In this document: piece by piece, positions 2,795 through 19,627 of the stretch | Numbering within the stretch: the first letter of the stretch is position 1 | Layout: every line of letters starts with the position of its first letter | DNA from: an uncultured Chloroflexia bacterium | GTDB lineage: Bacteria; Chloroflexota; Anaerolineae; CG2-30-64-16 | DNA length: 64,000 nt | NCBI GenBank assembly: GCA_963810095.1 | Contig: CAWEMM010000006.1 | Location: forward strand, 1,024,001-1,088,000 | Direction: 5' to 3' | Position numbers and translations under genes: made by a program | Notes under the pieces: generated by a model | The model's input: the letters and a program-made list of their open reading frames with translations, nothing else | What the model was told of the DNA's origin: nothing | The model's database searches: none

Positions 2795-3838
2795 ATGAAA
2801 AACATCATGGTGACCGGAGGCGCCGGGTTTATCGGTTCCAATTTTGTCCGCTACATGCTCGGGCAGCATGCGGATTACCGCGTCCTGGTCTATGACAAGA
2901 TGACCTACGCGGGCAACCCCGACAACCTGCTCGACGTGACCGCCCTCAATGGCACCGGCGACCCGCGTTACAGCTTTGTCAAAGGCGACATCTGCGATGC
3001 CGCCGCGGTCACAGATGCGATTGGCGCCTACAACATCGATACCATCGTCAACTTCGCGGCCGAGACTCATGTCGACCGCTCGATCATGGACCCCGACGCC
3101 TTCATCCAGACGGACGTTTACGGGACCTACGTGCTGCTCGAAGCCGCGCGCAAACTCAAGCTGGAGCGTTACCACCAGATTTCGACCGACGAAGTCTACG
3201 GGCATATCCACGGCGACCACCGGTCACTGGAGACCGACGCGGTCGCCCCGCGCAGCCCGTATGCCGCCAGCAAGACCAGCGGCGATCTGCTGGTGATTGC
3301 CTATTACGTCACCTACGGTTTGCCCGTCACGCTGACCCGGGGCGCGAACAATATCGGGCCCTACCAGTACCCCGAGAAGGTCATCCCCCTGTTTGTAACG
3401 AACGCCATTGACAACCTGCCGCTCCCTGTATACGGTGACGGGAAGCAGCGCCGCGATTACCAGTATGTGATGGACCACTGCGAAGGCATCGACGTGGTGC
3501 TCCACAAGGGACAATTGGGCGAAATCTACAACGTGGGCACGGGCGGCGAGATGGAAAACCTCCGCATGGTGGAGATCCTGCTCGATGAGCTGGGCAAACC
3601 GGCGTCGCTCATTCAGCATGTCGAGGATCGCCCCGGTCACGACCGGCGTTACTGCCTCAACGTGGACAAGCTCAAGACGTTGGGCTGGGAGCCCCGTCAC
3701 ACCCACGAAGAAGCCATCCGCAAAACCGTGCGCTGGTACGTGGACAACGAGTGGTGGTGGCGCAAGATCAAGTCCGGAGAGTTCAAGGAGTACTACCGGC
3801 GGCTGTACGGCGACCGGAAGGTCATTAATCCGGCGTAG
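2795..3838 (+). CDS. rfbB: dTDP-glucose 4,6-dehydratase
   Basis: VTGGAGFIGSNF, DKMTYAGN, FAAETHVDRSI, ISTDEVYG, PYAASK, DRPGHDRRY; GAGGTG RBS before ATG 2795. Confidence 0.96.
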   Translation: MKNIMVTGGAGFIGSNFVRYMLGQHADYRVLVYDKMTYAGNPDNLLDVTALNGTGDPRYSFVKGDICDAAAVTDAIGAYNIDTIVNFAAETHVDRSIMDPDAFIQTDVYGTYVLLEAARKLKLERYHQISTDEVYGHIHGDHRSLETDAVAPRSPYAASKTSGDLLVIAYYVTYGLPVTLTRGANNIGPYQYPEKVIPLFVTNAIDNLPLPVYGDGKQRRDYQYVMDHCEGIDVVLHKGQLGEIYNVGTGGEMENLRMVEILLDELGKPASLIQHVEDRPGHDRRYCLNVDKLKTLGWEPRHTHEEAIRKTVRWYVDNEWWWRKIKSGEFKEYYRRLYGDRKVINPA

Positions 3839-3863
3839 GCCAGGGCGGGTCAGGAGGGCGAGC

Positions 3864-4844
3864 ATGTCATTCAAGATGTACGGCGACCTGATGGTGTTCA
3901 GTGGCACGGCCAACCTGAACCTGGCGCGCGAAATCGGTGCGCGGCTGGGCGTCACGCTGGGCGGACGCGAGATAAAGCAGTTTCCGAACAGCAACACGTT
4001 CGTTAAGCTGGAACAAAGCGTGCGGGCCAAAGACGTTTTCGTGATTCAACCCACGTCCGCGCCGGTCAACGACAACCTGATGGAACTGCTCATCTTCATC
4101 GACACCCTGCGCCGCGATTCCGCCGGCCGCATTACCGCGGTCATTCCCTATTACGGCTACGGCAGGACCGACAAGAAGGACCAGCCGCGGGTGCCCATCA
4201 GCGCACGCCTGGTGGCCGATCTGATCGCCACCGCCGGTGCGGACCGCGTGGTCTCGGTCGACCTGCACGCCAAGCAGCTCCAGGGTTTTTTCTCGATCCC
4301 GATCGACGAACTGCCCGCGCTGGGTCTGTTCATCGACCATTTCAAGAAGCATCCCGTGCCCAATGCGGTGGTCGTCTCGCCCGACATCGGCGCGTTGGCC
4401 CGGGCGCGGAACTTCGCCGAGAAAACGGATCTACCGCTCGCCGTCATCGAGAAACGCCGTATCCTCAGCGGGGAGTACACGGAGATCTGGAACCTCATCG
4501 GCGACGTGGACAATAAGAACGTGATCATCGTCGACGATGAGATCGACACGGCAGGCACCCTCGTCAGGGCGGTCAATTTCATCAAGGATCAGGGCGCACT
4601 GGATGTGTGGGCATGCGCGACACACGCCGTTTTCTCCGGCCCGGCCGTCGAGAACATCCGCAACAGCGGGCTGTGCAAAGTGGTCGTCACCGACACAGTC
4701 GCGCTTTCGCCAGATAAGTGCCGGCGCTTGGCTGGGCAGGTCGAAGTGATCCCCGTCGCGCCGTTGATCGCTGATGTCATCTCGCGCATCCACGACGGGC
4801 GCTCGGTCGGCGAGTTGTTCGAAAGCGTAGAAAGACGGACTTAG
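3864..4844 (+). CDS. prs: Ribose-phosphate pyrophosphokinase
   Basis: [47 protein letters not shown]; GGAGG RBS. Confidence 0.96.
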
Positions 4845-4845
4845 T

Positions 4846-7849
<3,004 letters not shown>

Positions 7850-7864
7850 CAAGAGTTTGGGTTA

Positions 7865-7940
7865 CACCACAAAGACACGAAGACTCAACGGTTGGCAGAG
7901 GACGCTTTTGTGATCTTTGTGTCTTCGTGTCTTTGTGGTG
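7865..7940. repeat. REP-like palindrome, family A (CACAAAGA-periodic arms)
   Basis: CACCACAAAGACACGAAGAC...GTCTTCGTGTCTTTGTGGTG perfect 20-bp inverted repeat. Confidence 0.85.
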
Positions 7941-7978
7941 ACGACCGCAATCACGTCATTCACACAGGGTAGGGAGCC

Positions 7979-9355
7979 ATGCCGCCAAAACCGCGCGAAT
8001 GGATTTATCTGCCACGCCAGGCCGACCTGAGGCGTATCTTCGACGCGGCCTGCGGTATGGACTGTCTCTCGGTGGTCGGTGTCAGCAATTTGGGCAAGTC
8101 GGCAACGCTGCGGGCGCTTTGCGATCCGGGCGTGCAGGCGGAATACCTCGATGGAGACGCGCGTGACTACCTGTTCGTCTACATCGACTTCAACCAGATG
8201 CTGGAGATGAGCGACCAGGCCTTTTACGAGCTGGTGCTGCGCGCGTCGATCGAGTCGATCCGGGCGCAGAACATCAACGGCGAGGTGCTCCAGCAAGTCG
8301 AACGGGCCTACTACGGGCTGGTCGCGCCGACCAGCCCGTTCGAGGTACCGCTCAAGTTCAGCCAGGGCATGGCGGCCATCGGCGACCAGTTGGTGCAGAA
8401 AGTAGTGTTCCTGTTTGACGAGGTCGACGGCCCGGTTGCGGGCATCGACGGCCGGGTGTTCCTCAACCTGCGCGCCTTGCACGACCGCCACCCCACCGGG
8501 CTGACCTACGTCACCGCTACCAACCGCCGGCTCGAGCAGATCCGCCAGGACCCTGATGTTGCCGAGTTCGCAGAGCTATTCGAACAAGACACGCTATACC
8601 TCTCCATGCTGAACGAGGTCGAAATCAGGCAGCTCGCGACACGGTATGCGCAGGAAGAAGGCGTGACCTTCAGCGAAGAGGACCTTAAGTTTATCCGGGT
8701 GTGGACCGGGGGACACCCGGCGCTCCTCGAAATGACGTGCCGCATCCTCGGCCTGCTGACCGGCAGGCCGGTGCGCGAACCTTCGCAGGATTCGATCATT
8801 CACCGCCGCGCAACCGAGATGCTCGCCCAGGACCTGAACGTGTTGGGCGAGTGCCGCAAGATCTGGAACGATCTTTCCGAAGGCGAACAAGAAGCCCTGC
8901 TGGCAGTTGCCGCGAGCAGCGAAGGTGTGCGGGGAACCGGCTTCGACAGCGTGCTAGCCAAGCACCTGGTGGTGATGAACGGCGTCGACGCCACGATCTT
9001 CTCGCGCTGTTTCGCCGAGTTCGTCGGCCGGCAGAACGTGTCTCGCCGCACCACCAGCCAGGCCTTGCGGGTCGATCCAGACAGCGGCGAGGTATGGGTG
9101 AGCGGCGTCAAGCTGCCGACGCTCACCAACCTGGAGTACCGCCTGCTGCTGCTGCTATACGGCAAGATCGGCAAGATCGTGGACAAGTACCAGGTGGTCG
9201 AAGCCGTGTGGGGTGAGGACTACATCGACGACGTCGACGACGCCCGCATCGAGAAACTCATCAGCCGGCTCCGGCAAAAGATCGAGAAGGACCCGGCCAA
9301 CCCGAAGTATCTTTTCACCGTGCGCGGGCGGGGGTATAAGCTCGCCGAAGGCTAG
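7979..9355 (+). CDS. STAND-like P-loop NTPase fused to C-terminal OmpR/PhoB-type winged-helix DNA-binding domain (putative transcriptional regulator)
   Basis: Walker A GVSNLGKS, Walker B VVFLFDEVD, GGHP motif; C-terminal LTNLEYRLL..AVWG..ISRLRQKIEKDPANPKYLFTVRGRGYKL. Confidence 0.85.
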   Translation: MPPKPREWIYLPRQADLRRIFDAACGMDCLSVVGVSNLGKSATLRALCDPGVQAEYLDGDARDYLFVYIDFNQMLEMSDQAFYELVLRASIESIRAQNINGEVLQQVERAYYGLVAPTSPFEVPLKFSQGMAAIGDQLVQKVVFLFDEVDGPVAGIDGRVFLNLRALHDRHPTGLTYVTATNRRLEQIRQDPDVAEFAELFEQDTLYLSMLNEVEIRQLATRYAQEEGVTFSEEDLKFIRVWTGGHPALLEMTCRILGLLTGRPVREPSQDSIIHRRATEMLAQDLNVLGECRKIWNDLSEGEQEALLAVAASSEGVRGTGFDSVLAKHLVVMNGVDATIFSRCFAEFVGRQNVSRRTTSQALRVDPDSGEVWVSGVKLPTLTNLEYRLLLLLYGKIGKIVDKYQVVEAVWGEDYIDDVDDARIEKLISRLRQKIEKDPANPKYLFTVRGRGYKLAEG

Positions 9356-9393
9356 TTGCCTTGCCACAAAGCAGGGCTTAAGATGGTACAATG

Positions 9394-9441
9394 CGCCGGC
9401 AGGCCGCGAAAGGGTCGCGAAACCTGCCGGCGTTTGTTTTC
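9394..9441 (+). terminator. Terminator-like hairpin between regulator and pspA
   Basis: CGCCGGCAGG...CCTGCCGGCG followed by TTTGTTTT. Confidence 0.65.
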
Positions 9442-9566
9442 GTACTAGACGCTGATAGATCGCTTGTCAGTTTTCTGTCCGCCGCCGGTCAAGCGCGGGC
9501 AGGCGAACCGGCTTATCATCCCAACCATAGGCTCTAGAGTCCATTTCGATCCCAGGAGGCGTACGC

Positions 9567-10256
9567 ATGGCAACCCTTCTCGACAAGGTACAAACTCTGA
9601 TTTCGGCCAACCTGCATTACCTGGTTGACCAGTCACTTAAGCAAAACTCGATCGCGGTCATCAATCAATATATCCGCGAAGTCGAGAACAACCTGGACGA
9701 CCTGACCGAGGCCACGGCAACCGTGGGCGGCAACGTCAAGACCGTGCGTCGCAAGTACGAGGAACTCCAGGCTAAGTCGGCCGAGCTCGACCGCAATATC
9801 GACCTGTTCCTCCGCGAAGGCCGCGAGGACCTGGCGCGGGCCGCGCAGAGCAAGTACAACTCGACGCAGCGCCTGACTGAGACCTACGCGCAGCAGCTCG
9901 AACAGATGCAGCGCGAGTACCAGAATCTCATCGACGCCCGCCTCAAGCTCGAAGCCAAGCTGACCACCATCAAGCAGGAGCGCGAGGAGCTCGAAGCCCT
10001 GCTCGAGCTGGCGAAGTCGAAGGAAATCACCGCCAAGACGATCAAGTCGCTCGACGACCTGTCGGGCGTGGGCGACGCCGACGTGGCCCGCATTGCAGAC
10101 TCCATCCGCCAGCGCCTGGACCGGGCCTCGGCCGAGAGCGAGATGCGCGCGGCCAGCCTGGATAAGCAGATGGACGACGTGCTCGACAAGGGCGAACTCG
10201 ACGGCCAGTTGGCATCCCGCAAGGCGCGCCTCGGGCTCCAACAGAAGGCCGGCTAA
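9567..10256 (+). CDS. pspA: PspA/IM30 (ESCRT-III-like) family protein, paralogue 1
   Basis: Amphipathic N-terminus MATLLDKVQTLISANL, GREDLARAA motif, long coiled coil, C-terminal LASRKARLG; AGGAGG RBS. Confidence 0.9.
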   Translation: MATLLDKVQTLISANLHYLVDQSLKQNSIAVINQYIREVENNLDDLTEATATVGGNVKTVRRKYEELQAKSAELDRNIDLFLREGREDLARAAQSKYNSTQRLTETYAQQLEQMQREYQNLIDARLKLEAKLTTIKQEREELEALLELAKSKEITAKTIKSLDDLSGVGDADVARIADSIRQRLDRASAESEMRAASLDKQMDDVLDKGELDGQLASRKARLGLQQKAG

Positions 10257-10313
10257 GGAGCGCGCAGACAAACCAGTTTTCTCCGATGAAACCTGGTTTG
10301 TGAAGGAGCAGCT

Positions 10314-10997
10314 ATGGCATCTCTCTTAGAAAAAGTCCGGGTGTTGGTCTCTGCGGACATGAATCGTCTCGTCGACCGCGGGCTCGGTGGGACAAGCCAG
10401 GAGGCTTTGTACCAGCACCATGTTCGCGAGCTGCAAACGCTGCAGGAACAGCTTGCCGGCCAGCTCGTATCGCTGCGGGCCGAGCTTAACCAGATGCAGA
10501 AACGCAGCGCGGAGCAGCAGGCCCTGGTGGCGAAGCAAGACGCGGAGGTCGATCAACTCCTGCAGGCCGGGCTTCAGGATGATGCGCTTGCCGCGCAGGA
10601 CCGGCTGAACCAGAGCCGCACGGCCGCGGCCGATGCCGCGGGCCGGGTGGAGCGGTTGGAAGCCGAGTACAAGGAAATGGCCGACACGAAGGCCCAGCTC
10701 GACCTGCGGATCGACACCCTTGTCCGGAACGAGCCCGAAGTCAGGAGCATGCTCGGGCTCGCCCGCGCCAAGCAGCTCACGGCCGCCGCACGGCAGTCGC
10801 TCGACGACCTGTCGGGCACGGGGGACCCGGACGCGGAACGGGTAGTGGGCGCCATCCGGACCCGCTTGGCCGAGGCCGAGGCCCAGCTGCAGGAACTTGA
10901 GCAGCGCGGGCTGGCCCACGGCGAAACCCCCGACGTGCTGAAACGTAAAGAACTAGAGGCGCAGCTGGAAGCGCGGAAGACGCGGCTGGGCCTGTAA
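10314..10997 (+). CDS. PspA/IM30 family protein, divergent paralogue 2
   Basis: MASLLEKVRVLVSADM, GLQDDALAA; shares SLDDLSG.GD.D..R....IR.RL and terminal RK.RLGL with paralogue 1. Confidence 0.82.
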   Translation: MASLLEKVRVLVSADMNRLVDRGLGGTSQEALYQHHVRELQTLQEQLAGQLVSLRAELNQMQKRSAEQQALVAKQDAEVDQLLQAGLQDDALAAQDRLNQSRTAAADAAGRVERLEAEYKEMADTKAQLDLRIDTLVRNEPEVRSMLGLARAKQLTAAARQSLDDLSGTGDPDAERVVGAIRTRLAEAEAQLQELEQRGLAHGETPDVLKRKELEAQLEARKTRLGL

Positions 10998-11069
10998 CTC
11001 GAGCTTTACCCGGGCCGGCCGCCGCGGCGGCCGGCCCGGGGGTATCGTGGAGGTTGTGAAGGAGACCCT

Positions 11070-12416
11070 ATGTCCCTTGCACCCATTATTGTCGCACTCG
11101 TCCTCGGCGTGGTCGCGCTTGTGGCAGCCATCTATTTCTTTGCCGCAGGCAGCGGCAAGCGCACGCAAGCCGTGTTTTTCCTCGTCGTTGGGCTCGTCCT
11201 GCTGGTCGTCGGCGGCGCGCTCGGCTGGCAGAGCTACAGCCAACAGAATCCGGGCGGCACGGCCGCGCCGTTGATCGCAGCCCCCAAGGGGCCGGTCCAG
11301 GTGCGCGTGCTCTCGGCGCTGCCCGTGGAGCCGTGGGTGCGCGAGGCGGCCAAAGCATTCAACGCGACGAAGCCAACCCAGGATGGTCAGCCGATCGAGG
11401 TCGTGGTGACCGCCCAGGATGGGCTGAGCGCGCTGGGCAAGTTCGACCGCGACGACTTCGGCTCGCTGGGCGACAAGACGCGCGACCAACTGACGCCCGA
11501 CGAGCTCAAGCGCCTGGAGACCACGTTCCCCACCGTCTGGATTCCGGATAGCCGCTACCTGGTGGAGCTGGCAAACGCCTCCTATAAGGAACGCATCGGC
11601 CGCGACGTCTTCCTGACGGATGGCGAGTACCGCGCCCGCCCGACTGCCGTCTCGCTGTTCGTCTGGGGCATCTACCAGAGCCGGGCCAACGTGCTCGAGC
11701 AGAAGTTTGGCGAGATCAACTGGAAGGCGATCCACGACGCGGCCATCGCGAAGGGTGGCTGGCCCGAGCTGGGCGGCGACAAGGGCTGGGGCTTCTTCAA
11801 GCTGGTGGTGCCCAACCCGCGGCGCAATGTGGGCGGTCTCGCCGCCATGATTGCCGCGGCCGGCGAATACTACGGCCGGACAAACATCTCGGTCGACGAT
11901 GTGACCAACCCTGACTTCCAGAAGTGGCTCGGCGAGTTGATGGGCTCGCTGACCGACGTCAGCGGCGCGAGCGCGTACACCGCAGAGGATTTCGCCCTGT
12001 TCGGCTATTCGGCAGGCGACGGCGGGCAGTTGTTGGAGAGCGACCTGCTCAAGAACATGGAGGGCATCCGCACCCGCTGGTCTGACCCGCTGGTGGTGCG
12101 CTACCCCGAATACGTAACGTGGTTCGACTTCCCGTACACGATTTGGGTCGGCCCAGAGACGACCGCGGCCGAGAAGAACGCGGCGCTCCAGTTCCAGCAG
12201 TTCCTGCTGACACCCGAGATGCAGAAGCTGGCGGTGCAGTCGGGTCTGCGGCCGGTGACCAACGACGTAAACGTGACCGAGGGCGACAACCTGTTCACCA
12301 AATGGCAGAGCCAGGGCGTTGCGTCCGTGGTGCCCCGCACCACACGTATGGCCTCGCCGAGCCGTGACGTGCTGCTCGCGCTGCTGCGCTGGTTTGACTT
12401 GAACGTGGGGAAGTGA
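11070..12416 (+). CDS. Membrane-anchored extracellular solute-binding-domain protein (SBP_bac_11-like)
   Basis: Two N-terminal hydrophobic helices; PTVWIPDS, WFDFPY, AALQFQQFLLTPEMQKLAVQSGLRP. Confidence 0.75.
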   Translation: MSLAPIIVALVLGVVALVAAIYFFAAGSGKRTQAVFFLVVGLVLLVVGGALGWQSYSQQNPGGTAAPLIAAPKGPVQVRVLSALPVEPWVREAAKAFNATKPTQDGQPIEVVVTAQDGLSALGKFDRDDFGSLGDKTRDQLTPDELKRLETTFPTVWIPDSRYLVELANASYKERIGRDVFLTDGEYRARPTAVSLFVWGIYQSRANVLEQKFGEINWKAIHDAAIAKGGWPELGGDKGWGFFKLVVPNPRRNVGGLAAMIAAAGEYYGRTNISVDDVTNPDFQKWLGELMGSLTDVSGASAYTAEDFALFGYSAGDGGQLLESDLLKNMEGIRTRWSDPLVVRYPEYVTWFDFPYTIWVGPETTAAEKNAALQFQQFLLTPEMQKLAVQSGLRPVTNDVNVTEGDNLFTKWQSQGVASVVPRTTRMASPSRDVLLALLRWFDLNVGK

Positions 12417-12417
12417 C

Positions 12418-14176
12418 ATGAGCGCGGACAATAACCGCTCGCGATCCAACCGGCGCAGCGGCCAGCCCACCCCGCAGCGCGGCATCGCCGTCGCGGCCGC
12501 GTTGGCCGGCGTCGTGCTCTTGTGCATCTGCGTGTCGATCGTCCTGATACTCTTCCCGACCAAGCGCACGAGCACACCCGGGGCCGAAGCACCCCAGCCG
12601 GATGCCAAGAATCCGACCTTGGTCATCGCACACTCGCCCGAGAAGGCGGCGCTGATCAAGACACTCAGCGACGGGTTCAACGCGCAGCGCCAACGCACGC
12701 CCGATGGCCAGACGATGGCGATCCGCCTGCTCGAAATGACGCCGGAGGAGATGGTCAACCGCACGCTGGCCGGCGAAAGCGGCTTCCAGGCCATCACGCC
12801 CGACTCGTCGCTCTGGCTCGACCAACTAAATCGCCGGTGGGCGCAGAACCAGCCCGCGCCGGCTTCGGGCGGCGCCATTGCTCAAAGCCTGACCGGCGAG
12901 CCCGTGCGCTACGCGATCAGCCCGATCGTGATTGCGGCCTGGGAAGATGTGGCGCGCGGGCTCGGCTGGCCGGACCAACCGGTGAGCTGGAGCACGCTTG
13001 CAGAGCCGGGCGCAGAGCGACCCGAATTTCCGCTGGAGCCACCCGAGCACCGCGTACGCCAGCGGCCTCCTGGCGACCCTCGCCGAGTTCTATGCCGGCG
13101 CAGGGGTCCAGCGGGGCTTGACCGCCGACATGGCACAGGATCAGAAGACCGTCGACTACGTCAGCGCGATCGAGAAGACGGTCAAGTACTATGGCGAGGC
13201 CGAGCTGGCGGTGATGCAGCGGATCAGCCAGGACCGCAAGGCGCTCGACGCGTTCGTCGTCTCCGAGCAGCTCGTAACCGCCTTCAATACGGGCAAGTTC
13301 GGCAACCAGGCCGACAAATTGGTCGCACTCTACCCGGCCGAAGGCACCTTCTGGGCCGACCACCCGCTCGCGCTGCTCGAGACGCCCGCGCTCACCGATA
13401 ACCAGCGGCGGACGTTCCAGGCCTTCCGCGAGTACCTGGCCAGCCCGGAAAGCCAGAAGCAGGTGCTCCAGGCCGGCTACCGGCCGGCAGACCTGGGCCT
13501 CTCGCTTACCGGCGAAGGGTCGCCGCTGACGGCGGCAAACGGCGTCGACCCGAAACAGCCGCAAACGACGCTGCAACTGCCGGCCGCAGACGTCGTCCAG
13601 GTCGTCCAGAATGTGTGGGCCCTGACCAAGCGGAAGACCAACGTATTCCTGGTGGTCGACACGTCCGGATCGATGCAGGGCAGCAAGCTCGACGGCGCAA
13701 AGTCGGCCCTGCGCACCTTCCTGCAGCAGATCCCCAGCGACCAGGAGAAGGTCGGCCTCGTCGAATTCAACACGGGGATTGCCAACATTATCGAGCTGGA
13801 CACACTGGCCAACAACCGCGCGACGCTGAACGGGACGGTGGACGGCCTGCGGGCGAACGGCAACACCGCACTGCTCGATGCGGTCCGCACTGCCTATAAC
13901 CGGCTGCAGCAAACGGGCGATCCGGAGCGTATCAACGCCATCGTCGCCATGACGGACGGCCGCGAGAATGCCTCGATGGTGAGCCTGCGCCAACTCGTCG
14001 ACGAAATCCGCCAGGGCAACCAGAACGTGCCCGTGGTGATCTTCTGCATCGCATACGGCAAGGACGCCGATTACGAGGTGTTGCAGGCGATTGCGAATGC
14101 AAGCGGCGGCCAGGTGCGCGAAGGGAACGAAGAGACCATTCGTGAGCTGTACAAGATCCTTTCGAGCTACTTCTGA
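12418..14176 (+). CDS. Solute-binding domain plus von Willebrand factor A domain protein (apparent frameshift near 12998)
   Basis: N-terminal TM; PDSSLWL, SPIVIA, YPAEGTFWADHP; vWA MIDAS DTSGS, GNTAL, MTDGREN; one extra base at ACGCTTGCAG joins ORFs 12418-13401 and 12998-14176. Confidence 0.85.
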
Positions 14177-15069
14177 TGACTGAATCAGTTCGCGATCGCC
14201 TCGAAAAGGACGTCGGCAAGGCGCTTTTGCGCAACGCGGTCTTCGGCTGGGAGAGCGCAGTGATGGTCGGCGGTACGGTGGCTGCGGCCGCCCTTCTGCC
14301 GAACGTGATTCCGATTATTCCCTGGTTCCTGTGGGTGCTGGTCGGCATCGTCGGCGAGACCGCGGTAATCATCACCCGGCTAACAGACAAGGCCGAGCAG
14401 CAGAAGGCGCTCGAGGGCCTGTTCCGGGAGAAGTACAGCATCTCCGGCATCCGTGACCGCAATCTGCAGGAGAAGCTCAAGGAAGCGGAGCAGTACCGCC
14501 AGCGGATTCAAGCCGTGGTCGACCAGCACAGAGAAGGCGTGCTCCGTGACCGGCTCAAGCGCACCACCGACCAGGTCTACGACTGGATCGCCAACATGGT
14601 CACCCTGGCCCGGCGCCTCGACGTGTACCGCTCGGACCCGATCCTGAGGCGCGACCTGGAGCATGTGCCGCGGGAGGTGGAGCGGCTTAAGGCCCGGCTG
14701 TCAGTGGAGCGTGACCCGCGGGTCCGCGAGCAGCTGAACACGACGCTCGACTCGAACCAGCAGCAGATTCAGTCGCTTAGCGAGCTGCGGGGCCGCATGG
14801 ACCGGGCCGATCTGCAGCTCGATCATTCGCTGGCGGCGCTAGGGACCGTCTACTCGCAGCTGCTCCTGATCGGCACCAACGAGGTCGACTCGGACCGCGC
14901 AGACCAGCTACGGGACGACATTCGTGGCGAAGTCCTCGCCTTGAAGGACATCGTCGACTCGCTGAACGAAGTCTACGACGCGACGTCGGCCGCGTCGCAG
15001 ACGGCGCTGTCGCCGGAACAGACCGAGGCCGCCCGGCGCCTGCAAAAAACGGATCGCGCAGACAGGTAA
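14176..15069 (+). CDS. Hypothetical protein with N-terminal TM hairpin and long coiled coil (PspM/XpaC-like architecture)
   Basis: Hydrophobic residues ~22-66, then charged heptad-rich helices; TGATG coupling to the vWA gene. Confidence 0.7.
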   Translation: MTESVRDRLEKDVGKALLRNAVFGWESAVMVGGTVAAAALLPNVIPIIPWFLWVLVGIVGETAVIITRLTDKAEQQKALEGLFREKYSISGIRDRNLQEKLKEAEQYRQRIQAVVDQHREGVLRDRLKRTTDQVYDWIANMVTLARRLDVYRSDPILRRDLEHVPREVERLKARLSVERDPRVREQLNTTLDSNQQQIQSLSELRGRMDRADLQLDHSLAALGTVYSQLLLIGTNEVDSDRADQLRDDIRGEVLALKDIVDSLNEVYDATSAASQTALSPEQTEAARRLQKTDRADR

Positions 15070-15078
15070 GGACTGAAT

Positions 15079-15134
15079 AACACAAAGCCACAAAGACACG
15101 CAGACAAAGCAGGGTGTCGTTGTGTCTTTGTGTT
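15079..15134. repeat. REP-like palindrome, family A
   Basis: AACACAAAGCCACAAAGACAC...TTGTGTCTTTGTGTT. Confidence 0.75.
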
Positions 15135-15146
15135 GAAGGAGCATCC

Positions 15147-16295
15147 ATGAGGCACACGATTCTCGCTGTTGCTCTGGTAATCATTGCCGTGATCGTCGCG
15201 GCCTGCGGCGGCGGAGGAGCGGCCGCGCCGACAAAGGGCGACGCGACCGTTTACGTCGCCGGCCCGCTGTCGGGATTCCAGGCCAATACCGGCCAGACGG
15301 TCGCCGGCGGCGTCCGCCTGATGGCCGAGCAGTTGAACCGGTCGGGCGGATTGTTGGGTTACAAGGTCAAGGTGGTTGCACTCGACGACGAGGCGGACTC
15401 GGATGTGGCGCTGACCGTTGCGGGCAAAATCAAGGACGCGGTGGACAGCGGCGAAAAGGTCGTCGGGATCATCGGGCATCCGAATTCCGGCCAGACCGAG
15501 GCCGCGATGGGGGTGTACAAGGACCTGAATGTGGTCGTCATCACGCCCACGGCGTCTGAAGTCTCGCTGACGAAGCAAGGGTACCGCAACTTCTTCCGGG
15601 TCAACGCGGCGAACGATCTGCAGGCCAAGACCGGCGCGGAATACCTGGTCAACAAGCTGGGTGCAAAGAAGATCGCAGTGCTCTTCAACGACGACACATA
15701 CGGCAAGGACCTGGGTCAGCGGGTGGCCGACGATCTCAAGGGGCTCGGCGCGGACGTGCCTGTGTCGCTGCAGGTCAAGGTCGAGCAGAACCGCTTTCCC
15801 GACGAGGTCGCCAAGGTCAAGCAGGCGGGCGTCGACGCCATCTATTACGCGGGTTACGAGGTCGAGTGCCCGTACCTGCGCGCCGACCTGCGCGATGCGG
15901 GCCTCAGCAACCTGACGTTTATGGCCTCCGACGGCTGCTTCCTGGCGGCCACCATCGACAACTCGGATGGCGCCGCCGAAGGCATGTACGTGACGGGCTT
16001 CGCGCCCAGCCCGAAGACCTCCGTCGACCAGCAGTGGGTGTCGGCATACCAGGCCGTCGAGTTCCGCAATCCTGACACGTATTCCGTCAATGGCTACAGC
16101 GCCATGCAAGTGCTGGCCGAGGGCATCAAGAAGGCCGGCTCGCTGGACGGCCGCAAGATCGAGGACGCCATTCGCCAACTTGATATCAAGACCCCACTGG
16201 GCGAAGTGCAGTACCAGGACAACGGCGACTTGAAGGCCGCCCAGATTTACATCTTCCAGGTGAAGGACGGGCAGTTCACTCAGGTGGCGCCGTAG
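15147..16295 (+). CDS. Branched-chain amino acid ABC-type substrate-binding lipoprotein (LivJ/LivK family), orphan
   Basis: Lipobox VAAC; VAGPLSG, GGLLG, LDDEAD, IIGHPNSG, FFRVNAAND, DDTYGK; AAGGAG RBS. Confidence 0.9.
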   Translation: MRHTILAVALVIIAVIVAACGGGGAAAPTKGDATVYVAGPLSGFQANTGQTVAGGVRLMAEQLNRSGGLLGYKVKVVALDDEADSDVALTVAGKIKDAVDSGEKVVGIIGHPNSGQTEAAMGVYKDLNVVVITPTASEVSLTKQGYRNFFRVNAANDLQAKTGAEYLVNKLGAKKIAVLFNDDTYGKDLGQRVADDLKGLGADVPVSLQVKVEQNRFPDEVAKVKQAGVDAIYYAGYEVECPYLRADLRDAGLSNLTFMASDGCFLAATIDNSDGAAEGMYVTGFAPSPKTSVDQQWVSAYQAVEFRNPDTYSVNGYSAMQVLAEGIKKAGSLDGRKIEDAIRQLDIKTPLGEVQYQDNGDLKAAQIYIFQVKDGQFTQVAP

Positions 16296-16312
16296 TCAAC
16301 CGCGCTCGAAGC

Positions 16313-16359
16313 GTGTAAAAAGGCAAGCCCACGCAGTGCGTCGGCTTGCCTTTTTACAC
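16313..16359. terminator. Terminator hairpin ending the pspA-livJ transcription unit
   Basis: GTGTAAAAAGGCAAGCC...GGCTTGCCTTTTTACAC perfect inverted repeat with T-tracts on both strands. Confidence 0.85.
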
Positions 16360-16390
16360 TTAGAAAATACTACCTGCTATACTGTCTCGC

Positions 16391-17669
16391 ATGACCGACA
16401 ACAACTACACTCTACTGGCTGTGTTTGCCCACCCCGACGACGAAATCGGCGCGGGATCGACGTTCGCCCACTACAGCGACGCGGGCGTGCGGATTGTGCT
16501 GGCGTGCGCGACGCGCGGGGAAGCGGCGACCATCTTCTGCGAGGACTGCGCCACCCCCGAGACGCTCGCGGACGTCCGCACGATTGAGCTGCAGTGCGCC
16601 TGCGACCACCTGGGCATCCAGGAGCTGCGCTGGCTCGACTGGCCGGACGGCGGGATCAAAGACCTGCCGCGAGCCGAGGCGGTGCGCCAGGTCGTCGAGC
16701 TGATTCGCGACGTGCATCCTACTATCGTCGTGACCCACCCCGCGAACGGCCTCTACCCGCATCCCGATCACCTCGCCGTCTGGGAGATCGTGCGAACGGC
16801 GTTCGACGCAGCGGGCGACGAGCAGCAGTATGGAGATGCGGGCCCCGCCTGGAAGCCGCTGCGGCTTTTCACGCGGGCCATGCCCCAGAGCCTCTTCGAG
16901 CGCGCGCCAGGGCTGCAAGAGTTCAGGGTCGAGTTGAACGGCGAGCTGCTGCCATTCATGGGCACGCCCGACGACGAGATCGACGTCACCATGCACGTGG
17001 GCCCCACGGTCGCCCGGCGCATGGCTGCGTGGGCTTGCCACCGCTCACAGCATAACCCGAAGGGCTTTTCGACGGTCATGCCCGACGGTCTGCGTGAGGA
17101 GATGGCGGCGAACGAGCAGTTCTTGCTGGCGACCGGCGCACCGCTGCCTGCGGGCACCAGCGACGATCTCTTCGCCGGTCTCGAAGAAGGCGACACCTAC
17201 TTGGTCGGCAGCGCCGGCGCAGCCCCCGACGCCGCGCCTGCCGAGCAAACGGAAGAGGCGTCTCCAGTCTCGCCGGCCTACCTCAGGCTGGTCCTCGCGG
17301 AGCTCACGCGGCATATCACGTTGTCCGAGGCGCTCAAGCTCTACCAGCACAACCCCCAGGAAGCCAAGCAGAGCAGCCTGTACCACCAACTGGCCGGCAC
17401 GGAGCAGGAAATCCTCTATCGCCTGGCGCGCACGCTGCGGCGGCTGGACGCGGGCGCGGGCAAGATCGAGCCGGATCCGGCCATCATGCGCGAGGCGCGG
17501 CGGCGCAACCGGCCCGAGCCGCGGCGCGAGTTCCTGCTAAACCGCATGGAGGTGGCGTACGGGCGCCTGCAAGACAACGGACGCAGCGCGACGGTCGCCG
17601 AAGAGCGCGAGGCGTGGGATGAGCTGGCCGCGCTGGCGCGGCGGATCGGTCGAGCTGCTGAAAGAGTAA
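16391..17669 (+). CDS. PIG-L/MshB/BshB-family N-deacetylase with C-terminal helical extension (true stop probably 17669 after a 1-nt indel; ORF track reads to 17743)
   Basis: FAHPDDE, ATRGE, R..EL..A...LG, WPDG, HPDH, CHRSQ motifs; extended -10 TGcTATACT 7 nt before ATG. Confidence 0.85.
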
Positions 17670-17800
17670 GACCGCGTAAAACAAACCCGGCCCTGCATCA
17701 AGGCTTGCCTTGCCTGCAGAACCGGGTTGTCCCGCCTGGGTAAATGACCGGGCTCGCGTCGCCGGGGGAACTGCGGCGCGAGGCCCGGCCCGTGATATCG

Positions 17801-19627
17801 CTAGATGATCTCCAGTTCCTTCAGCTTGCTCTCGGGCACCACGCCGTCGACCCAGCCGCGCTCCGTGTAGTACTCGGCCTTCATCTCGTCCAGCTCACAC
17901 ACCTGGCCCTTCGAACCGCCGAAGGTCGACGGCTCGGTCAGGAAGCGCGCCGGCAGGCTGTCATCCTTCCCGGTGAAGCCGTTCAGGTTATTGTAGTACC
18001 GCTCGAGGTTATACACCCGCTCGCCCACCTGGAAGAGGTAGTCGGCCGTGCAGGGCGCGCCGGTGATGGCCGCAAACTGCGCCGCGAAGCCGTCCATCGA
18101 CTCGGAGAAGGTGGCGAACTTGCAGATGTCCAGGCAGTCGGTAACGGCGTGGACATTCTGGAAGATCATGATCAGCTTGCCCTTGCCCTTGTAGGCCAGC
18201 GGATCGACGACGTCGGTGGGACCGAGCACGTTGCCGGCCACTTCGGCCGCCGGCGTGTAACCGCGCAGGTGACACGCGCCGCGATTCGAGGTGGCATAGC
18301 CGATGCCCATGCCCTTGATGCCGCGCGGGTCATAGGCGGGGATGCCCTGGTCTTTCACCGCCATGGCGAGCTCCGGATGGCCGAGCTTCTTCGCGGCCTT
18401 GCCTGTGCCCTCTGCCAGGATGTCGCCGATCCCTTCGCGGAACGCCACCTTGCGCCCCATCTCGACCATGGCATGTGTGTCGCCCCAGGCGAGCGGCTCC
18501 GCTGCATAGCCGCACTCGGAGTACTCCATGTACATTGCCAGCACGGTGCCGATTTCGATCGCGTCGTAGCCGTAGTCATTCGCCCGGTCGATCATGTACG
18601 CCACCGACGCAATGTCGTCGTTCCCGCAGAACGCGCCCACAGACCAGGCCGGCTCGTACTCCACGCTCTCCATCCGCACCTTGAACGGGCCTTCCGTGAC
18701 CTCGACCTCTTTCTTGCAGGCCACAGGGCAGGCGTGACACGTGGGGTCTTCCACCAGGATCGTCGCCTTCACGTGCTCGCCCGACAGCAGTTCCGCACGG
18801 TCGCCAAACGAAGTGATCTGGCCGTTGCGCGTGGGCAGTCCGCCCATGCTGCTCGTGATGTTCATCAGCACGTTCGTGCCATAAACCGACAGCCCGCCCT
18901 TGCGCGGCGAGGTCAACACTCGCTCGTCAGAGAGCTGCGCCAGGGCCACTTTCTGTGCTTCCCGGAATGCTTCCCGATCTACGGGCCGCGGCCGGTCGGC
19001 ATGCTTGCCCTTGATGACGATGGCCTTCAGGTTCTTGCTGCCGGCCACTGCGCCGGTGCCGCCGCGACCCGACGAGCGGTCGTTCTCGTTCATCCAGCAG
19101 GCGAACTTCACTAGGTTCTCGCCCGCCGGCCCGATGCAGATGATGCTCACGTCCTTCTCGCCGTGCCGCGCCTGCAGCGTCTTGATGGTCTGGTGCACGC
19201 CCATGCCCCACAGGTCTGTCGCGGGCTGGAACGTGATCTCGTTGTTTTCCACGATCGCGTACACCGGTTCGGGCGCCTTGCCCTTGAACACGATGCCATC
19301 CAGCCCGGCCCACTTCAGCCGTGCGCCCGACCACCCGCCGTGATGCGAGTCGGTCACCGTGCCGGTCAGCGGCGACTTGGTCACAAACGCAATGCGGCCG
19401 CTCAGGTTGACATCGGTGCCGCTGAGCGGTCCCGTCATCAGGGCCAGGATGTTCTCCGGAGAGAGCGGATCGACCAGCGGGCCGTTGTCAAACACGTACT
19501 TCACGCCCAAGCCGCGCGCACCCACGTACAGCCGCGCGTCTTCGTCCGCAATGGGCTTGTATTCGACCGCACCGTCGGTCAGGTCGACCCAAGCCACCCG
19601 ATTCTTATAACCACCCAAGTTCATCAT
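17801..19627 (-). CDS. aor: Aldehyde:ferredoxin oxidoreductase (W/Mo-pterin AOR family)
   Basis: KSPLTG..DSH.GG, IGPAGEN, GRGGTGAV.GSKNLKAI, CHACPVAC, EYE, YATSNRGACH; GGAGGTG RBS. Confidence 0.95.
   Translation of the reverse strand: MMNLGGYKNRVAWVDLTDGAVEYKPIADEDARLYVGARGLGVKYVFDNGPLVDPLSPENILALMTGPLSGTDVNLSGRIAFVTKSPLTGTVTDSHHGGWSGARLKWAGLDGIVFKGKAPEPVYAIVENNEITFQPATDLWGMGVHQTIKTLQARHGEKDVSIICIGPAGENLVKFACWMNENDRSSGRGGTGAVAGSKNLKAIVIKGKHADRPRPVDREAFREAQKVALAQLSDERVLTSPRKGGLSVYGTNVLMNITSSMGGLPTRNGQITSFGDRAELLSGEHVKATILVEDPTCHACPVACKKEVEVTEGPFKVRMESVEYEPAWSVGAFCGNDDIASVAYMIDRANDYGYDAIEIGTVLAMYMEYSECGYAAEPLAWGDTHAMVEMGRKVAFREGIGDILAEGTGKAAKKLGHPELAMAVKDQGIPAYDPRGIKGMGIGYATSNRGACHLRGYTPAAEVAGNVLGPTDVVDPLAYKGKGKLIMIFQNVHAVTDCLDICKFATFSESMDGFAAQFAAITGAPCTADYLFQVGERVYNLERYYNNLNGFTGKDDSLPARFLTEPSTFGGSKGQVCELDEMKAEYYTERGWVDGVVPESKLKELEII

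What the first reader, a model, noticed from the sequence alone, without database searches (positions are those of the whole stretch)
7979..16295. Candidate undescribed PspA/ESCRT-III envelope-stress system: STAND-wHTH regulator, 2x PspA, SBP, SBP-vWA, TM coiled-coil protein and orphan lipoprotein
Seen: seven co-oriented genes, tightly spaced or coupled from the first SBP to the TM coiled-coil gene and closed by a strong terminator at 16313. There are three solute-binding proteins but no ABC permease or ATPase. Known: PspA/Vipp1/LiaH are ESCRT-III-like membrane remodelers whose characterised partners are PspBC/PspF, LiaI/LiaFSR or ClgR/PspM, none of which is recognisable here. Inference: the extracytoplasmic SBP and SBP-vWA proteins sense a ligand or damage, the 2-TM coiled-coil protein recruits PspA polymers to the membrane, and the NTPase-wHTH controls expression. 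I recall SBP+vWA proteins next to TelA/XpaC stress genes, so this could be a variant with PspA in place of TelA; that recollection is unverified.
Basis: partly seen in the sequence, partly recalled or inferred. Interest (0 to 1): 0.82.

Follow-up and report, generated by a model that had tools for sequence, protein, structure and literature searches.

The report
PspA operon with surface sensor proteins
A gene cluster kept across many Chloroflexota joins the membrane-repair protein PspA to membrane-anchored binding proteins that face outwards and to its own regulator, a partner set not described for PspA so far.

Summary
Seven co-oriented genes lie at 7979-16295 and end at a 17-bp hairpin at 16313-16359. 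The SBP-vWA gene carries a 1-nt frameshift near 12996-12998. This is probably an assembly error, because SecA in the same window is split too.

The order PspA-SBP1-SBPvWA-(2-TM helical protein)-LivJ-type lipoprotein is kept in the 80 best Chloroflexota loci: PspA1 69/72, SBPvWA 67/67, 2-TM protein 62/62, LivJ 50/51 evaluable. No ABC permease or ATPase is nearby. PspA2 is a duplication specific to this family.

The regulator has a P-loop NTPase domain and an OmpR-type wHTH, and it has its own terminator. Upstream of pspA1 are three GTC repeats spaced 11 bp apart. This site occurs once in the genome. It is present in 24/35 loci with the regulator and 0/23 without.

Most likely this is a PspA envelope-stress operon with an extracytoplasmic sensor or anchor module. 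The mechanism is inferred.

The main texts of two PSP surveys and one review do not mention it. Earlier unchecked notes of this scan describe TelA versions on other DNA.

Verdict: new variant of a known kind.

The parts
7979..9355 (+). REG: P-loop NTPase (STAND/AAA_16-like, residues ~1-350) fused to a C-terminal OmpR/PhoB-type winged helix (residues ~355-455). It has no receiver domain.
   Evidence: Trans_reg_C at 68.3 bits and nSTAND2 at 20.6 bits, below the cut-off of 24. Only the C-terminus matches solved structures (RegX3 1e-15, VicR, PhoB). Homologues carry precomputed PF00486 and sometimes PF13191, PF20703 or PF20702. Walker A GVSNLGKS and Walker B VFLFDEVD were read from the translation.
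9394..9441 (+). Intrinsic terminator-like hairpin after REG, which separates REG from the pspA operon.
   Evidence: Arms 9394-9403 and 9423-9432 are 100% complementary. They are followed by TTTGTTTTC. The fold is -33.3 kcal/mol.
9465..9493 (+). Putative REG operator: three direct GTC repeats with 11-bp spacing (TGTCAG-N6-GTCCG-N6-GTCAAG).
   Evidence: Conserved in 13 of 14 REG-pspA1 spacers. It is the single occurrence in the 6.13-Mb genome. It is present in 24 of 35 evaluable loci with REG and 0 of 23 without.
9514..9519 (+). -10-like hexamer TATCAT, 20 nt downstream of the third repeat.
   Evidence: TATCAT, TATGAT, TATAAT, TAGAAT, TAGTAT or TATACT stands at the same offset in relatives. The sigma-70 consensus scan reported no promoter here.
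9567..10256 (+). PspA1, PspA/IM30 (ESCRT-III-like) effector.
   Evidence: PF04012 at E 1.9e-21, 77.1 bits. Found in 69 of 72 evaluable loci. This locus holds the only PF04012 genes of the genome.
10314..10997 (+). PspA2, a divergent tandem paralogue of PspA1.
   Evidence: 33-38% identical to PspA1 over the full length. They share the N-terminal helix and the C-terminal motif ELxxQLEARKxRLGL. PF04012 scores only 21.5 bits. Found in 21 of 72 loci, all of them the closest relatives (L044-L066).
11070..12416 (+). SBP1: membrane-anchored extracytoplasmic protein with a type-II periplasmic-binding-protein fold.
   Evidence: Hydrophobic N-terminus at residues 1-56. AF2 model has pLDDT 91.7. Best Foldseek matches are the sulfate-binding protein 1sbp (E 4.8e-11), then ferric-, polyamine- and sugar-binding proteins, at 10-16% identity. 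No solved relative was found by sequence. Mean column identity is 72% among 9 orthologues.
12418..14176 (+). SBP-vWA: single-TM anchor, a binding-protein domain paralogous to SBP1, and a C-terminal vWA domain with an intact MIDAS. Here it is broken by a 1-nt frameshift near 12996-12998.
   Evidence: VWA at E 2.4e-18 and SBP_bac_11 at 26.6 bits. The two halves abut in the alignment with 8 intact orthologues. DxSxS, T and D of the MIDAS are nearly invariant. The SBP1 and SBPvWA profiles hit each other's proteins.
14176..15069 (+). XpaC-like protein: two TM helices followed by a cytoplasmic bundle of long helices. Its start overlaps the SBP-vWA stop by 1 nt.
   Evidence: PF10112 at 21.6 bits, below the cut-off of 29.8. 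5 of 14 orthologues match PF10112 at E<=0.01. AF2 model has pLDDT 87.5 and is all helical. Found in 62 of 62 evaluable loci.
15114..16295 (+). LivJ/LivK-type (type-I binding-protein) lipoprotein with no transporter nearby. The likely start is the ATG at 15147, and the lipobox is VAAC.
   Evidence: Peripla_BP_6 at E 1.1e-54. Best solved relatives are amino-acid binding proteins 3ipc/3ip5 (3e-39) and LivK/LivJ. Found in 50 of 51 evaluable loci. The N-terminus was read.
16313..16359 (+). Terminator hairpin that closes the operon.
   Evidence: 17-bp perfect stem GTGTAAAAAGGCAAGCC / GGCTTGCCTTTTTACAC. The fold is -34.8 kcal/mol.

Best explanation
This is a PspA-centred envelope-stress operon of Chloroflexota with a partner set that differs from PspBC/PspF, LiaIFSR and ClgR/PspM.

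**Shown**
- One transcription-unit-like block (pspA1, pspA2, SBP1, SBP-vWA, 2-TM helical protein, LivJ-type lipoprotein) is kept as a block across the class and in some other classes.
- It holds the only PspA genes of the genome.
- The three binding proteins are predicted to be extracytoplasmic and lack any transporter partner nearby.
- The adjacent NTPase-wHTH gene co-occurs with a unique site of three direct repeats in front of pspA1.

**Inferred**
1. SBP1 and its vWA-fused paralogue, perhaps with the LivJ-type lipoprotein, form a surface module. It binds a small ligand and/or, through the MIDAS site, an envelope protein.
2. Their state is passed through the membrane to the 2-TM protein. Its cytoplasmic helical bundle serves as the membrane docking site for PspA polymers, the role proposed for XpaC beside TelA.
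3. REG oligomerises on the three 11-bp-spaced repeats, which replace a -35 box as in PhoB-type promoters, and switches the operon on in an ATP-dependent way. It may be held in check by free PspA, as PspF is.

The triad SBP1/SBP-vWA/2-TM protein is a portable module. It stands alone in some classes and pairs with TelA elsewhere, including a second locus of this genome.
For: **Conservation**
- The order is kept in 15 same-family loci and 5 loci of other families. In those 5 loci no SecA or PIG-L flank was found.
- In the 80 best of 366 species-level loci, all with Chloroflexota titles: PspA1 69/72, SBPvWA 67/67, 2-TM protein 62/62, LivJ 50/51. Flank genes are less constant: SecA 24/40, PIG-L 13/43.
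- The full cluster is also in 4 loci of other classes, L204-L207.

**Phyletic coupling among 41 relatives**
- 30 genomes have both PspA and the 2-TM protein.
- 9 have neither.
- 2 have only a PspA, one with a much higher PF04012 score (E 3e-48 and 5e-47, against about 1e-13 to 1e-23 for the cluster type).
- 0 have only the 2-TM protein.

**Sensor-like character**
- SBP1 has a binding-protein fold.
- Its family has 881 representative clusters at E<=1e-3.
- Of 10 long members sampled, 2 are Ser/Thr-kinase fusions, 1 a trypsin-like protease fusion and 1 a HEAT fusion.
- The MIDAS motif is intact.

**No transporter**.

**Regulator and operator**: wHTH; operator; separate terminator.

**TelA counterpart**
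- L173 holds a SARP-type regulator, a TM+coiled-coil protein, TelA and 3 SBP-vWA genes.
- The SBP-vWA proteins of the two loci are 30% identical over the full length, E 2e-56.
- L222 has TelA directly followed by an SBP-vWA-like gene.
Against: - No experiment or expression data bear on it.
- The triad occurs without PspA or TelA next to it in at least 6 loci of other classes (L209, L211, L212, L213, L215, L223), with unrelated neighbours in the 4 loci whose neighbours were scanned (L209, L211, L212, L223). A direct triad-PspA link is therefore not obligatory.
- REG is missing within 10 kb in 23 of 52 evaluable loci. Eleven loci with REG lack the strict operator.
- The XpaC assignment is below Pfam's threshold.
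- The TM+coiled-coil protein of the TelA locus shows no sequence similarity to the 2-TM protein here.
- The helical bundle has no specific structural match. The best VIA Z of 11.2 is to an F-BAR domain, under the level of about 13 that helical models reach by chance.
- The SBP-vWA gene is frameshifted in this assembly. If that is real, the system is defective in this organism.
- The counts come from related genomes, which are not independent.
Confidence: 0.55

Rival explanations
1. The triad (SBP1, SBP-vWA, 2-TM protein) is an autonomous surface module, for example an envelope tether, adhesion unit or signalling unit. PspA is only a co-regulated neighbour that protects the membrane where this module is inserted, and the two do not interact directly.
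For: The triad stands alone in loci of other classes, next to a racemase, HAD hydrolase, histidine kinase or sugar-nucleotide enzymes. The vWA-MIDAS domain is a typical protein-binding adhesion domain, and its solved relatives are ITIH, alpha2delta, integrin I domains and TRAP.
Against: Within the class, PspA of this type and the 2-TM protein co-occur strictly (30 both, 9 neither, 0 with the 2-TM protein alone). They are always adjacent in one orientation. The same kind of SBP-vWA gene pairs with TelA, another cytoplasmic membrane-stress protein.
Confidence: 0.25
2. The binding proteins are ordinary orphan substrate-binding proteins that deliver solutes (amino acids; an oxyanion or metal) to ABC importers encoded elsewhere. 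Their position beside pspA has no functional meaning.
For: The lipoprotein is a close relative of LivJ/LivK and of Agrobacterium amino-acid binding proteins (E 3e-39 to 1e-35). The genome has many BPD_transp_2 permeases (55 matches). SBP1's best structural matches are transport proteins.
Against: No permease or ATPase lies in the cluster in any locus examined. The other 4 strong Peripla_BP_6 genes of this genome sit within about 5 kb of permeases, and this one does not. SBP1 and SBP-vWA are anchored by TM helices, and relatives are fused to kinases. The lipoprotein is kept next to the 2-TM gene in 50 of 51 loci.
Confidence: 0.12
3. The locus is decaying in this organism. The frameshift in SBP-vWA is real and the system is non-functional here.
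For: The gene reads in two frames. No public contig bridges the site to contradict it.
Against: SecA, an essential gene, is also split into two frames in this window, while relatives have one ORF of 987-1003 aa. TelA and several permease genes are split elsewhere in the genome. The closest relative, G001, shows many such breaks. Apart from the single extra base, the sequence on both sides stays 84% identical to the L025 orthologue.
Confidence: 0.08

Closest known systems
xpaC-telA (xpaC-yaaN) membrane-stress gene pair of Bacillota
   Same: A small protein with two TM helices and a cytoplasmic helical part is encoded beside a soluble helical membrane-stress protein. The 2-TM protein here gives weak PF10112 (XpaC) matches. 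xpaC-telA is reported as upregulated in daptomycin-resistant Enterococcus faecium (abstract of PMC6811118, seen in the listing).
   Different: The effector here is PspA, not TelA. TelA (PF05816) is not in this locus. The pair is extended by two TM-anchored binding proteins, a vWA domain, a LivJ-type lipoprotein and a dedicated regulator.
TelA + SBP + SBP-vWA + small membrane protein operons
   Same: The same kind of TM-anchored SBP-vWA protein (30% identity, E 2e-56) lies beside a cytoplasmic membrane-stress protein, a TM+coiled-coil protein and a wHTH-type regulator.
   Different: PspA stands in place of TelA. The regulator is NTPase+C-terminal wHTH, whereas the regulator at L173 matches Pfam BTAD (its N-terminal wHTH was read by eye). 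The TM+coiled-coil proteins are not detectably homologous. The PspA form is ancestral in the class, whereas TelA was found above cut-off in only 2 of 41 relatives.
PspA / TM-anchored Snf7 + AAA+ ATPase + ABC ATPase/permease + PBPB-OmpA operons (Ravi et al. 2024, PMC11237479; passages read)
   Same: PspA is linked in an operon with an extracytoplasmic solute-binding-fold protein.
   Different: There is no AAA+ ATPase, ABC ATPase, permease or OmpA domain here. The binding proteins are SBP_bac_11-like and Peripla_BP_6, not PBPB, and one is fused to vWA.
Classical Psp (PspF-PspABC) and Lia (LiaIH-LiaFSR) systems
   Same: The PspA/IM30 effector sits with a dedicated transcription regulator next to it. 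The idea that an NTPase-type activator is controlled by PspA is borrowed from PspF (recalled knowledge).
   Different: The regulator is not a sigma-54 enhancer-binding protein or a two-component response regulator. No PspB/PspC or LiaI/LiaF family hit was found in the cluster. The nearest PspC-domain gene is about 12 kb upstream of REG.

Membership tests
PspA/IM30 (PF04012) | Match to the family profile above the curated cut-off | tested here: met
   PspA1 scores 77.1 bits against a cut-off of 33.9. PspA2 scores only 21.5 bits but aligns full length with PspA1 at 33-38% identity.
Classical Psp system (PspF-PspABC) | PspB/PspC membrane partners and a sigma-54 AAA+ activator beside pspA | tested here: not met
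   None of the seven proteins matches these families. PspC-domain genes lie at C6:1019781 (about 12 kb upstream of REG) and on C10. PspF was not searched genome-wide.
Lia-type system (LiaIH-LiaFSR) | LiaI/LiaF-type membrane proteins and a two-component system beside the PspA homologue | tested here: not met
   No such Pfam or NCBIfam hit was found in the cluster. LiaH scores only 31.3 bits against an equivalog cut-off of 380. REG lacks a receiver domain.
XpaC (PF10112, Halogen_Hydrol) | Match to the family profile above the curated cut-off; 2 TM helices followed by a cytoplasmic helical region | tested here: inconclusive
   21.6 bits against a cut-off of 29.8, covering profile positions 4-103 of 191. 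5 of 14 orthologues match at E<=0.01, best 2.9e-6. 11 of the 120 listed homologues carry a precomputed PF10112. The topology fits.
TelA/XpaC module | A TelA (PF05816) gene adjacent to the 2-TM protein | tested here: not met
   The only TelA match in the genome is at C6:1883728-1884366, 0.84 Mb away.
STAND NTPase | P-loop NTPase core with Walker A/B plus the family-specific helical domain; match to a STAND profile | tested here: inconclusive
   nSTAND2 scores 20.6 bits against a cut-off of 24. Some homologues carry precomputed nSTAND1, nSTAND2 or AAA_16. Walker A/B and a GGHP motif were read by eye; reading GGHP as the STAND 'GxP' motif is recalled knowledge. The N-terminal 350 residues have no solved relative by sequence. 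The protein was not folded.
OmpR/PhoB-type response regulator | Receiver domain plus C-terminal winged helix | tested here: not met
   The winged helix is present (68.3 bits; RegX3 1e-15). No Response_reg match was found. All NCBIfam response-regulator hits cover only the C-terminal ~100 residues and lie far below their cut-offs.
ABC-importer substrate-binding protein (as a transporter component) | Binding-protein fold and a cognate permease/ATPase in the same operon | tested here: not met
   The fold is present. No permease or ATPase is in the cluster here or in relatives.
vWA domain with MIDAS | DxSxS...T...D metal-ion-dependent adhesion site | tested here: met
   VWA at E 2.4e-18. D404, S406, S408, T473 and D503 (numbering of L025) are nearly invariant.

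The most novel reading that the evidence does not exclude
The triad SBP1/SBP-vWA/2-TM helical protein is a general extracytoplasmic sensor-adaptor. It recruits interchangeable cytoplasmic membrane-repair proteins: PspA in Anaerolineae, TelA elsewhere. This would make the enigmatic TelA a functional counterpart of the ESCRT-III-like PspA. It would also give PspA its first outward-facing ligand sensor. In this picture a minimal STAND-type ATP switch with an OmpR-type DNA-binding domain acts as a new kind of Psp regulator.
Probability: 0.25. Interest if true: 0.8.

Novelty: new variant of a known kind. Interest (0 to 1): 0.62.

Why it matters
PspA/Vipp1 proteins are ancient ESCRT-III relatives. 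How they are told where and when to act is known only for a few model systems.

Here the only PspA genes of a large, environmentally abundant group are wired to three outward-facing binding proteins, a vWA adhesion domain, a 2-TM adaptor and a dedicated regulator with a recognisable operator. The group includes filamentous wastewater bacteria such as Candidatus Amarolinea (record title).

This yields concrete, testable parts: the operator, the regulator, ligand-binding pockets and a candidate docking protein. It also links PspA to TelA, whose function is still unclear.

Tried and rejected
- **Complex prediction.** The cytoplasmic part of the 2-TM protein (residues 66-275) was run with PspA1. 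The result was no answer, score 0.00, and the controls were not run. This is neither for nor against binding.
- **Fold of the 2-TM protein.** Foldseek gave no match at E<=0.001. VIA-align gave a best Z of 11.2 to an F-BAR domain plus several BAR-type rows, all below the level that helical models reach by chance. No ESCRT-III, PspA or TelA structure was listed, which excludes nothing.
- **Sequence searches against solved structures.** The 2-TM protein and SBP1 gave nothing.
- **Anti-phage defence library.** Only coiled-coil noise turned up for the PspAs.
- **RNA evidence.** No RNA holder is listed.
- **Checking the frameshift in public contigs.** No contig bridges 12987-13013.
- **Bona fide XpaC for a profile comparison.** PF10112 was not found in 5 TelA-bearing Chloroflexota genomes.
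- **TelA neighbourhoods in other classes.** In 19 loci (L154-L172), only one weak SBP-like neighbour turned up (L156).
- **Paralogue of the C-terminal half of the 2-TM protein** (L043:8350-9696). Its neighbours are unrelated: UbiD, LigT, GHMP kinase.
- **Consensus promoter/terminator scan.** It found no promoter and missed both hairpins.
- **Anantharaman et al. 2012 Ter/TelA paper.** It is not held, so whether it describes SBP-vWA beside TelA could not be checked.
- **Literature searches** for PspA or TelA with vWA and substrate-binding proteins returned nothing pertinent.

Full report
**1. What is in the sequence**

Seven + strand ORFs fill 7979-16295. Pfam and NCBIfam give the following.
- REG, 7979-9355: a C-terminal OmpR/PhoB-type winged helix (Trans_reg_C, 68.3 bits) behind a P-loop region. 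The only profile match to the P-loop region is sub-threshold (nSTAND2, 20.6 bits against a cut-off of 24).
- PspA1, 9567-10256: PF04012 at 77.1 bits.
- PspA2, 10314-10997: PF04012 at 21.5 bits. It aligns full length with PspA1 at 33-38% identity.
- SBP1, 11070-12416: weak SBP_bac_8/11 matches.
- SBP-vWA, 12418-14176: SBP_bac_11 at 26.6 bits and VWA at E 2.4e-18.
- A 297-aa protein, 14176-15069: weak match to PF10112, the XpaC family (21.6 bits against a cut-off of 29.8).
- A Peripla_BP_6 protein, 15114-16295: E 1.1e-54, LivJ/LivK-like.

Gaps between genes are 211, 57, 72, 1, -1 and 44 nt.

Hydrophobic N-terminal segments place SBP1 (residues 1-56), SBP-vWA (19-52) and the lipoprotein (lipobox VAAC) outside the membrane. 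The 297-aa protein has two TM helices and a long cytoplasmic helical part. These topologies are inferred from sequence.

A 17-bp perfect hairpin at 16313-16359 (-34.8 kcal/mol) closes the block. A second hairpin with a T tract (9394-9441, -33.3 kcal/mol) follows REG, so REG is probably a separate transcript.

**2. The frameshift**

The SBP-vWA gene reads in frame 1 up to about 12996 and in frame 2 from 12998. Eight relatives have a single ORF of 564-602 aa. The two window halves abut exactly in the alignment...PVSWST | LQSRAQSD.... The break is therefore one extra base.

SecA in the same window is also split, 4846-5937 in frame 1 and 5954-7849 in frame 2. In relatives SecA is one ORF of 987-1003 aa. 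TelA and several permease genes are split elsewhere in the genome. The closest relative, G001, shows many such breaks. I read this as indel errors of the assembly. Public contigs do not bridge the site, so this is not proven.

**3. Conservation**

The 2-TM protein was found in 24 of 24 same-family genomes (in G005 only a weaker paralogue-type match). It was also found in 6 of 16 genomes of other families of the class.

In 20 fetched loci:
- The 15 same-family loci keep REG-PspA1-PspA2-SBP1-SBPvWA-2TM-LivJ, as far as each contig reaches.
- The 5 loci from other families keep PspA1-SBP1-SBPvWA-2TM-LivJ. No PspA2, SecA or PIG-L flank was found in them.

A scan of one genome per species found 366 loci that encode an SBP1 relative. 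The best 80 all carry Chloroflexota titles: Anaerolineae, Anaerolineales, Caldilineales, Caldilinea, Litorilinea, Candidatus Amarolinea aalborgensis. Some of these are the same genomes as the G handles.

Among those 80 loci, counting only loci with enough flanking DNA:

| Gene | Present / evaluable |
|---|---|
| PspA1 | 69 / 72 |
| SBP-vWA | 67 / 67 |
| 2-TM protein | 62 / 62 |
| LivJ-type | 50 / 51 |
| PspA2 | 21 / 72 (closest relatives only, L044-L066) |
| REG | 29 / 52 |
| SecA | 24 / 40 |
| PIG-L | 13 / 43 |

Four loci from other classes of the phylum (L204-L207) also carry PspA-SBP1-SBPvWA-2TM-LivJ.

Among 41 relatives, PspA and the 2-TM protein co-occur as follows:
- both in 30 genomes;
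- neither in 9;
- PspA alone in 2, with a much stronger PF04012 score (E about 1e-47), which suggests another PspA type;
- the 2-TM protein alone in 0.

The genome has no other PF04012 gene. Related genomes are not independent, so these counts describe a pattern and give no probability.

**4. The binding proteins are not transporter parts here**

No permease or ATPase homologue appears in any locus examined.

In this genome the four other strong Peripla_BP_6 genes lie within about 5 kb of BPD_transp_2 permeases. For the one in the cluster, the nearest such match is 187 kb away. The nearest ABC_tran match is 17.6 kb downstream on the other strand; 150 of 285 candidates were scored.

SBP1 has no solved relative by sequence. 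Its AlphaFold model (pLDDT 91.7, pTM 0.81) is a type-II binding-protein fold. The best Foldseek match is the sulfate-binding protein 1sbp (E 4.8e-11, TM 0.66 on the target). Ferric-, polyamine- and sugar-binding proteins follow at 10-16% identity.

A profile of SBP1 finds 881 representative clusters at E<=1e-3. Of 10 long members sampled, 2 are Ser/Thr kinase-SBP fusions, 1 an SBP-trypsin-like protease fusion and 1 a HEAT-SBP fusion. This suits a sensor domain.

SBP1 and the SBP part of SBP-vWA are paralogues, since each profile hits the other's proteins. The vWA domain keeps the MIDAS residues. Its solved relatives are extracellular adhesion domains.

The lipoprotein's closest solved relatives bind amino acids: 3ipc/3ip5 at 3e-39, LivK and LivJ at 1e-37 to 1e-35.

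**5. Regulator and operator**

Only the last ~100 residues of REG match solved structures, and all matches are OmpR/PhoB winged helices. There is no receiver domain.

The N-terminus has Walker A (GVSNLGKS) and Walker B (VFLFDEVD) motifs. Some homologues carry AAA_16, nSTAND1 or nSTAND2 annotations. 'STAND-like' is therefore plausible but not established.

In the REG-pspA1 spacers of 13 of 14 loci I found TGTCAG-N6-GTC(C/G)G-N6-GTCA(A/T)G. This is three direct GTC repeats spaced 11 bp apart. A -10-like hexamer follows 20-24 nt later, but there is no -35.

In this genome the pattern occurs once, at window 9465. Among the 80 loci it precedes pspA1 in 24 of 35 evaluable loci with REG and in 0 of 23 without. 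The 11 REG loci that lack it have the most divergent REGs.

Direct repeats one helical turn apart that replace the -35 box are the known arrangement of PhoB-type activators (recalled knowledge). I infer that REG activates the pspA operon.

Loci without REG have varied upstream genes: RecQ, a GAF-PAS histidine kinase in three loci, DUF711 and others.

**6. Relation to TelA**

Earlier unchecked notes of this scan describe operons on other DNA with TelA, a small membrane protein and two binding-fold proteins, one fused to vWA. I tested the lead here.

TelA (PF05816) matches this genome once, 0.84 Mb away. That locus, L173, holds:
- a SARP-type regulator (BTAD);
- a 265-aa protein with a hydrophobic N-terminus and coiled coil;
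- TelA, which is frameshifted;
- three SBP-vWA paralogues, with multi-TM ORFs between them.

An SBP-vWA of the PspA cluster type and one of the TelA locus are 30% identical over the full length, E 2e-56. The two TM+coiled-coil proteins show no sequence similarity.

TelA above cut-off was found in only 2 of 41 relatives. It was found in 33 of 301 genomes sampled across the phylum; this tally includes three genomes flagged unpublished.

Of 19 TelA loci in other classes, none had the module next to it apart from one weak hit. A separate locus, L222, has TelA directly followed by an SBP-vWA-like gene.

SBP-vWA relatives occur in 54 of 301 sampled genomes; this tally includes two unpublished genomes. 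In at least six loci of other classes, SBP1-SBPvWA (in three of them with a weakly matching 2-TM protein) lies without PspA or TelA beside it; where I scanned the neighbours (four loci) they were unrelated.

So the triad is a portable module. PspA plus the LivJ-type protein, or TelA, are alternative additions to it.

**7. How it most likely works**

Shown:
- gene content, order and conservation;
- predicted topology;
- absence of transporter genes;
- co-occurrence of the operator with REG.

Inferred:
- The outward-facing proteins report a ligand or an envelope contact.
- The 2-TM protein couples this to the cytoplasmic face and docks PspA.
- REG switches the operon on.

The 2-TM protein's model is a helical bundle without a specific structural match. 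The complex prediction gave no answer. No RNA data are available.

**8. Comparison with what is in print**

The PSP survey of Ravi et al. 2024 (passages read) has no mention of vWA, XpaC or TelA in its main text. [quoted passage not shown]

Popp et al. 2022 (term search of the main text) and a 2025 review of ESCRT-III-like systems (term search) have no mention of Chloroflexi, vWA, solute- or substrate-binding proteins or TelA.

Supplementary tables and the web app of these papers could not be read and may list the context. The 2012 Ter/TelA comparative paper is not held.

Literature searches for the combination found nothing pertinent.

**9. Verdict**

The cluster is a new variant of PspA-type envelope-stress systems. 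It is conserved in hundreds of Chloroflexota species and has a modular counterpart built on TelA. The mechanism remains untested.

Noticed in passing
window 4846-7849: SecA is split into two ORFs in different frames (363 aa and 631 aa). Relatives have one ORF of 987-1003 aa. This is probably an indel error of the assembly.
   Followed up: partly
window 7865-7940: A 24-nt-arm palindrome (-46.3 kcal/mol) lies between SecA and REG. Its 16-nt core CACAAAGACACGAAGA occurs 35 times in the genome, so it is a dispersed REP- or MITE-like repeat.
   Followed up: partly
L173 (G000:C6:1874000-1893900), about 7400-19200: A second envelope locus of the same genome. It holds a SARP-type BTAD regulator, a TM+coiled-coil protein, a frameshifted TelA and three SBP-vWA paralogues, with multi-TM ORFs between them. 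TelA was found above cut-off in only 2 of 41 relatives.
   Followed up: partly
L043:8350-9696 (G000:C6:~1823350-1824700): A 448-aa coiled-coil protein whose C-terminal part resembles residues 99-280 of the 2-TM protein (34% identity). It is present in many relatives. Its neighbours are unrelated: UbiD, LigT, GHMP kinase.
   Followed up: partly
G000:C6:1019781-1019957 (4.2 kb before the window start): A small PspC-domain ORF (94.9 bits) lies about 12 kb upstream of REG, and a second one lies on C10. Whether its position is conserved was not checked.
   Followed up: no
L037 (G033:C3), 3097-4206, 8374-9615, 11230-12827: One relative has extra genes inserted in the cluster. A hybrid receiver-histidine kinase lies between REG and pspA1. 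A TPR protein lies between SBP-vWA and the 2-TM gene. An NfeD protein plus a 324-aa ORF lie before the LivJ-type gene.
   Followed up: no
L032 (G018:C267), REG-pspA1 spacer: The spacer holds a run of about 11 GGTGACA(T/C) 8-mers before the operator, and CCCAATA repeats after the -10-like box.
   Followed up: no
proteins P0180, P0230, P0132, P0194: The SBP1-type domain occurs fused behind Ser/Thr protein kinases, before a trypsin-like protease and behind HEAT repeats in other organisms.
   Followed up: partly
L208 4119-6605 and L214 11374-13800: In one family of another class, the gene before SBP-vWA encodes an 808-828-aa protein with a C-terminal SBP1-like domain. Its N-terminal part was not identified.
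   Followed up: no
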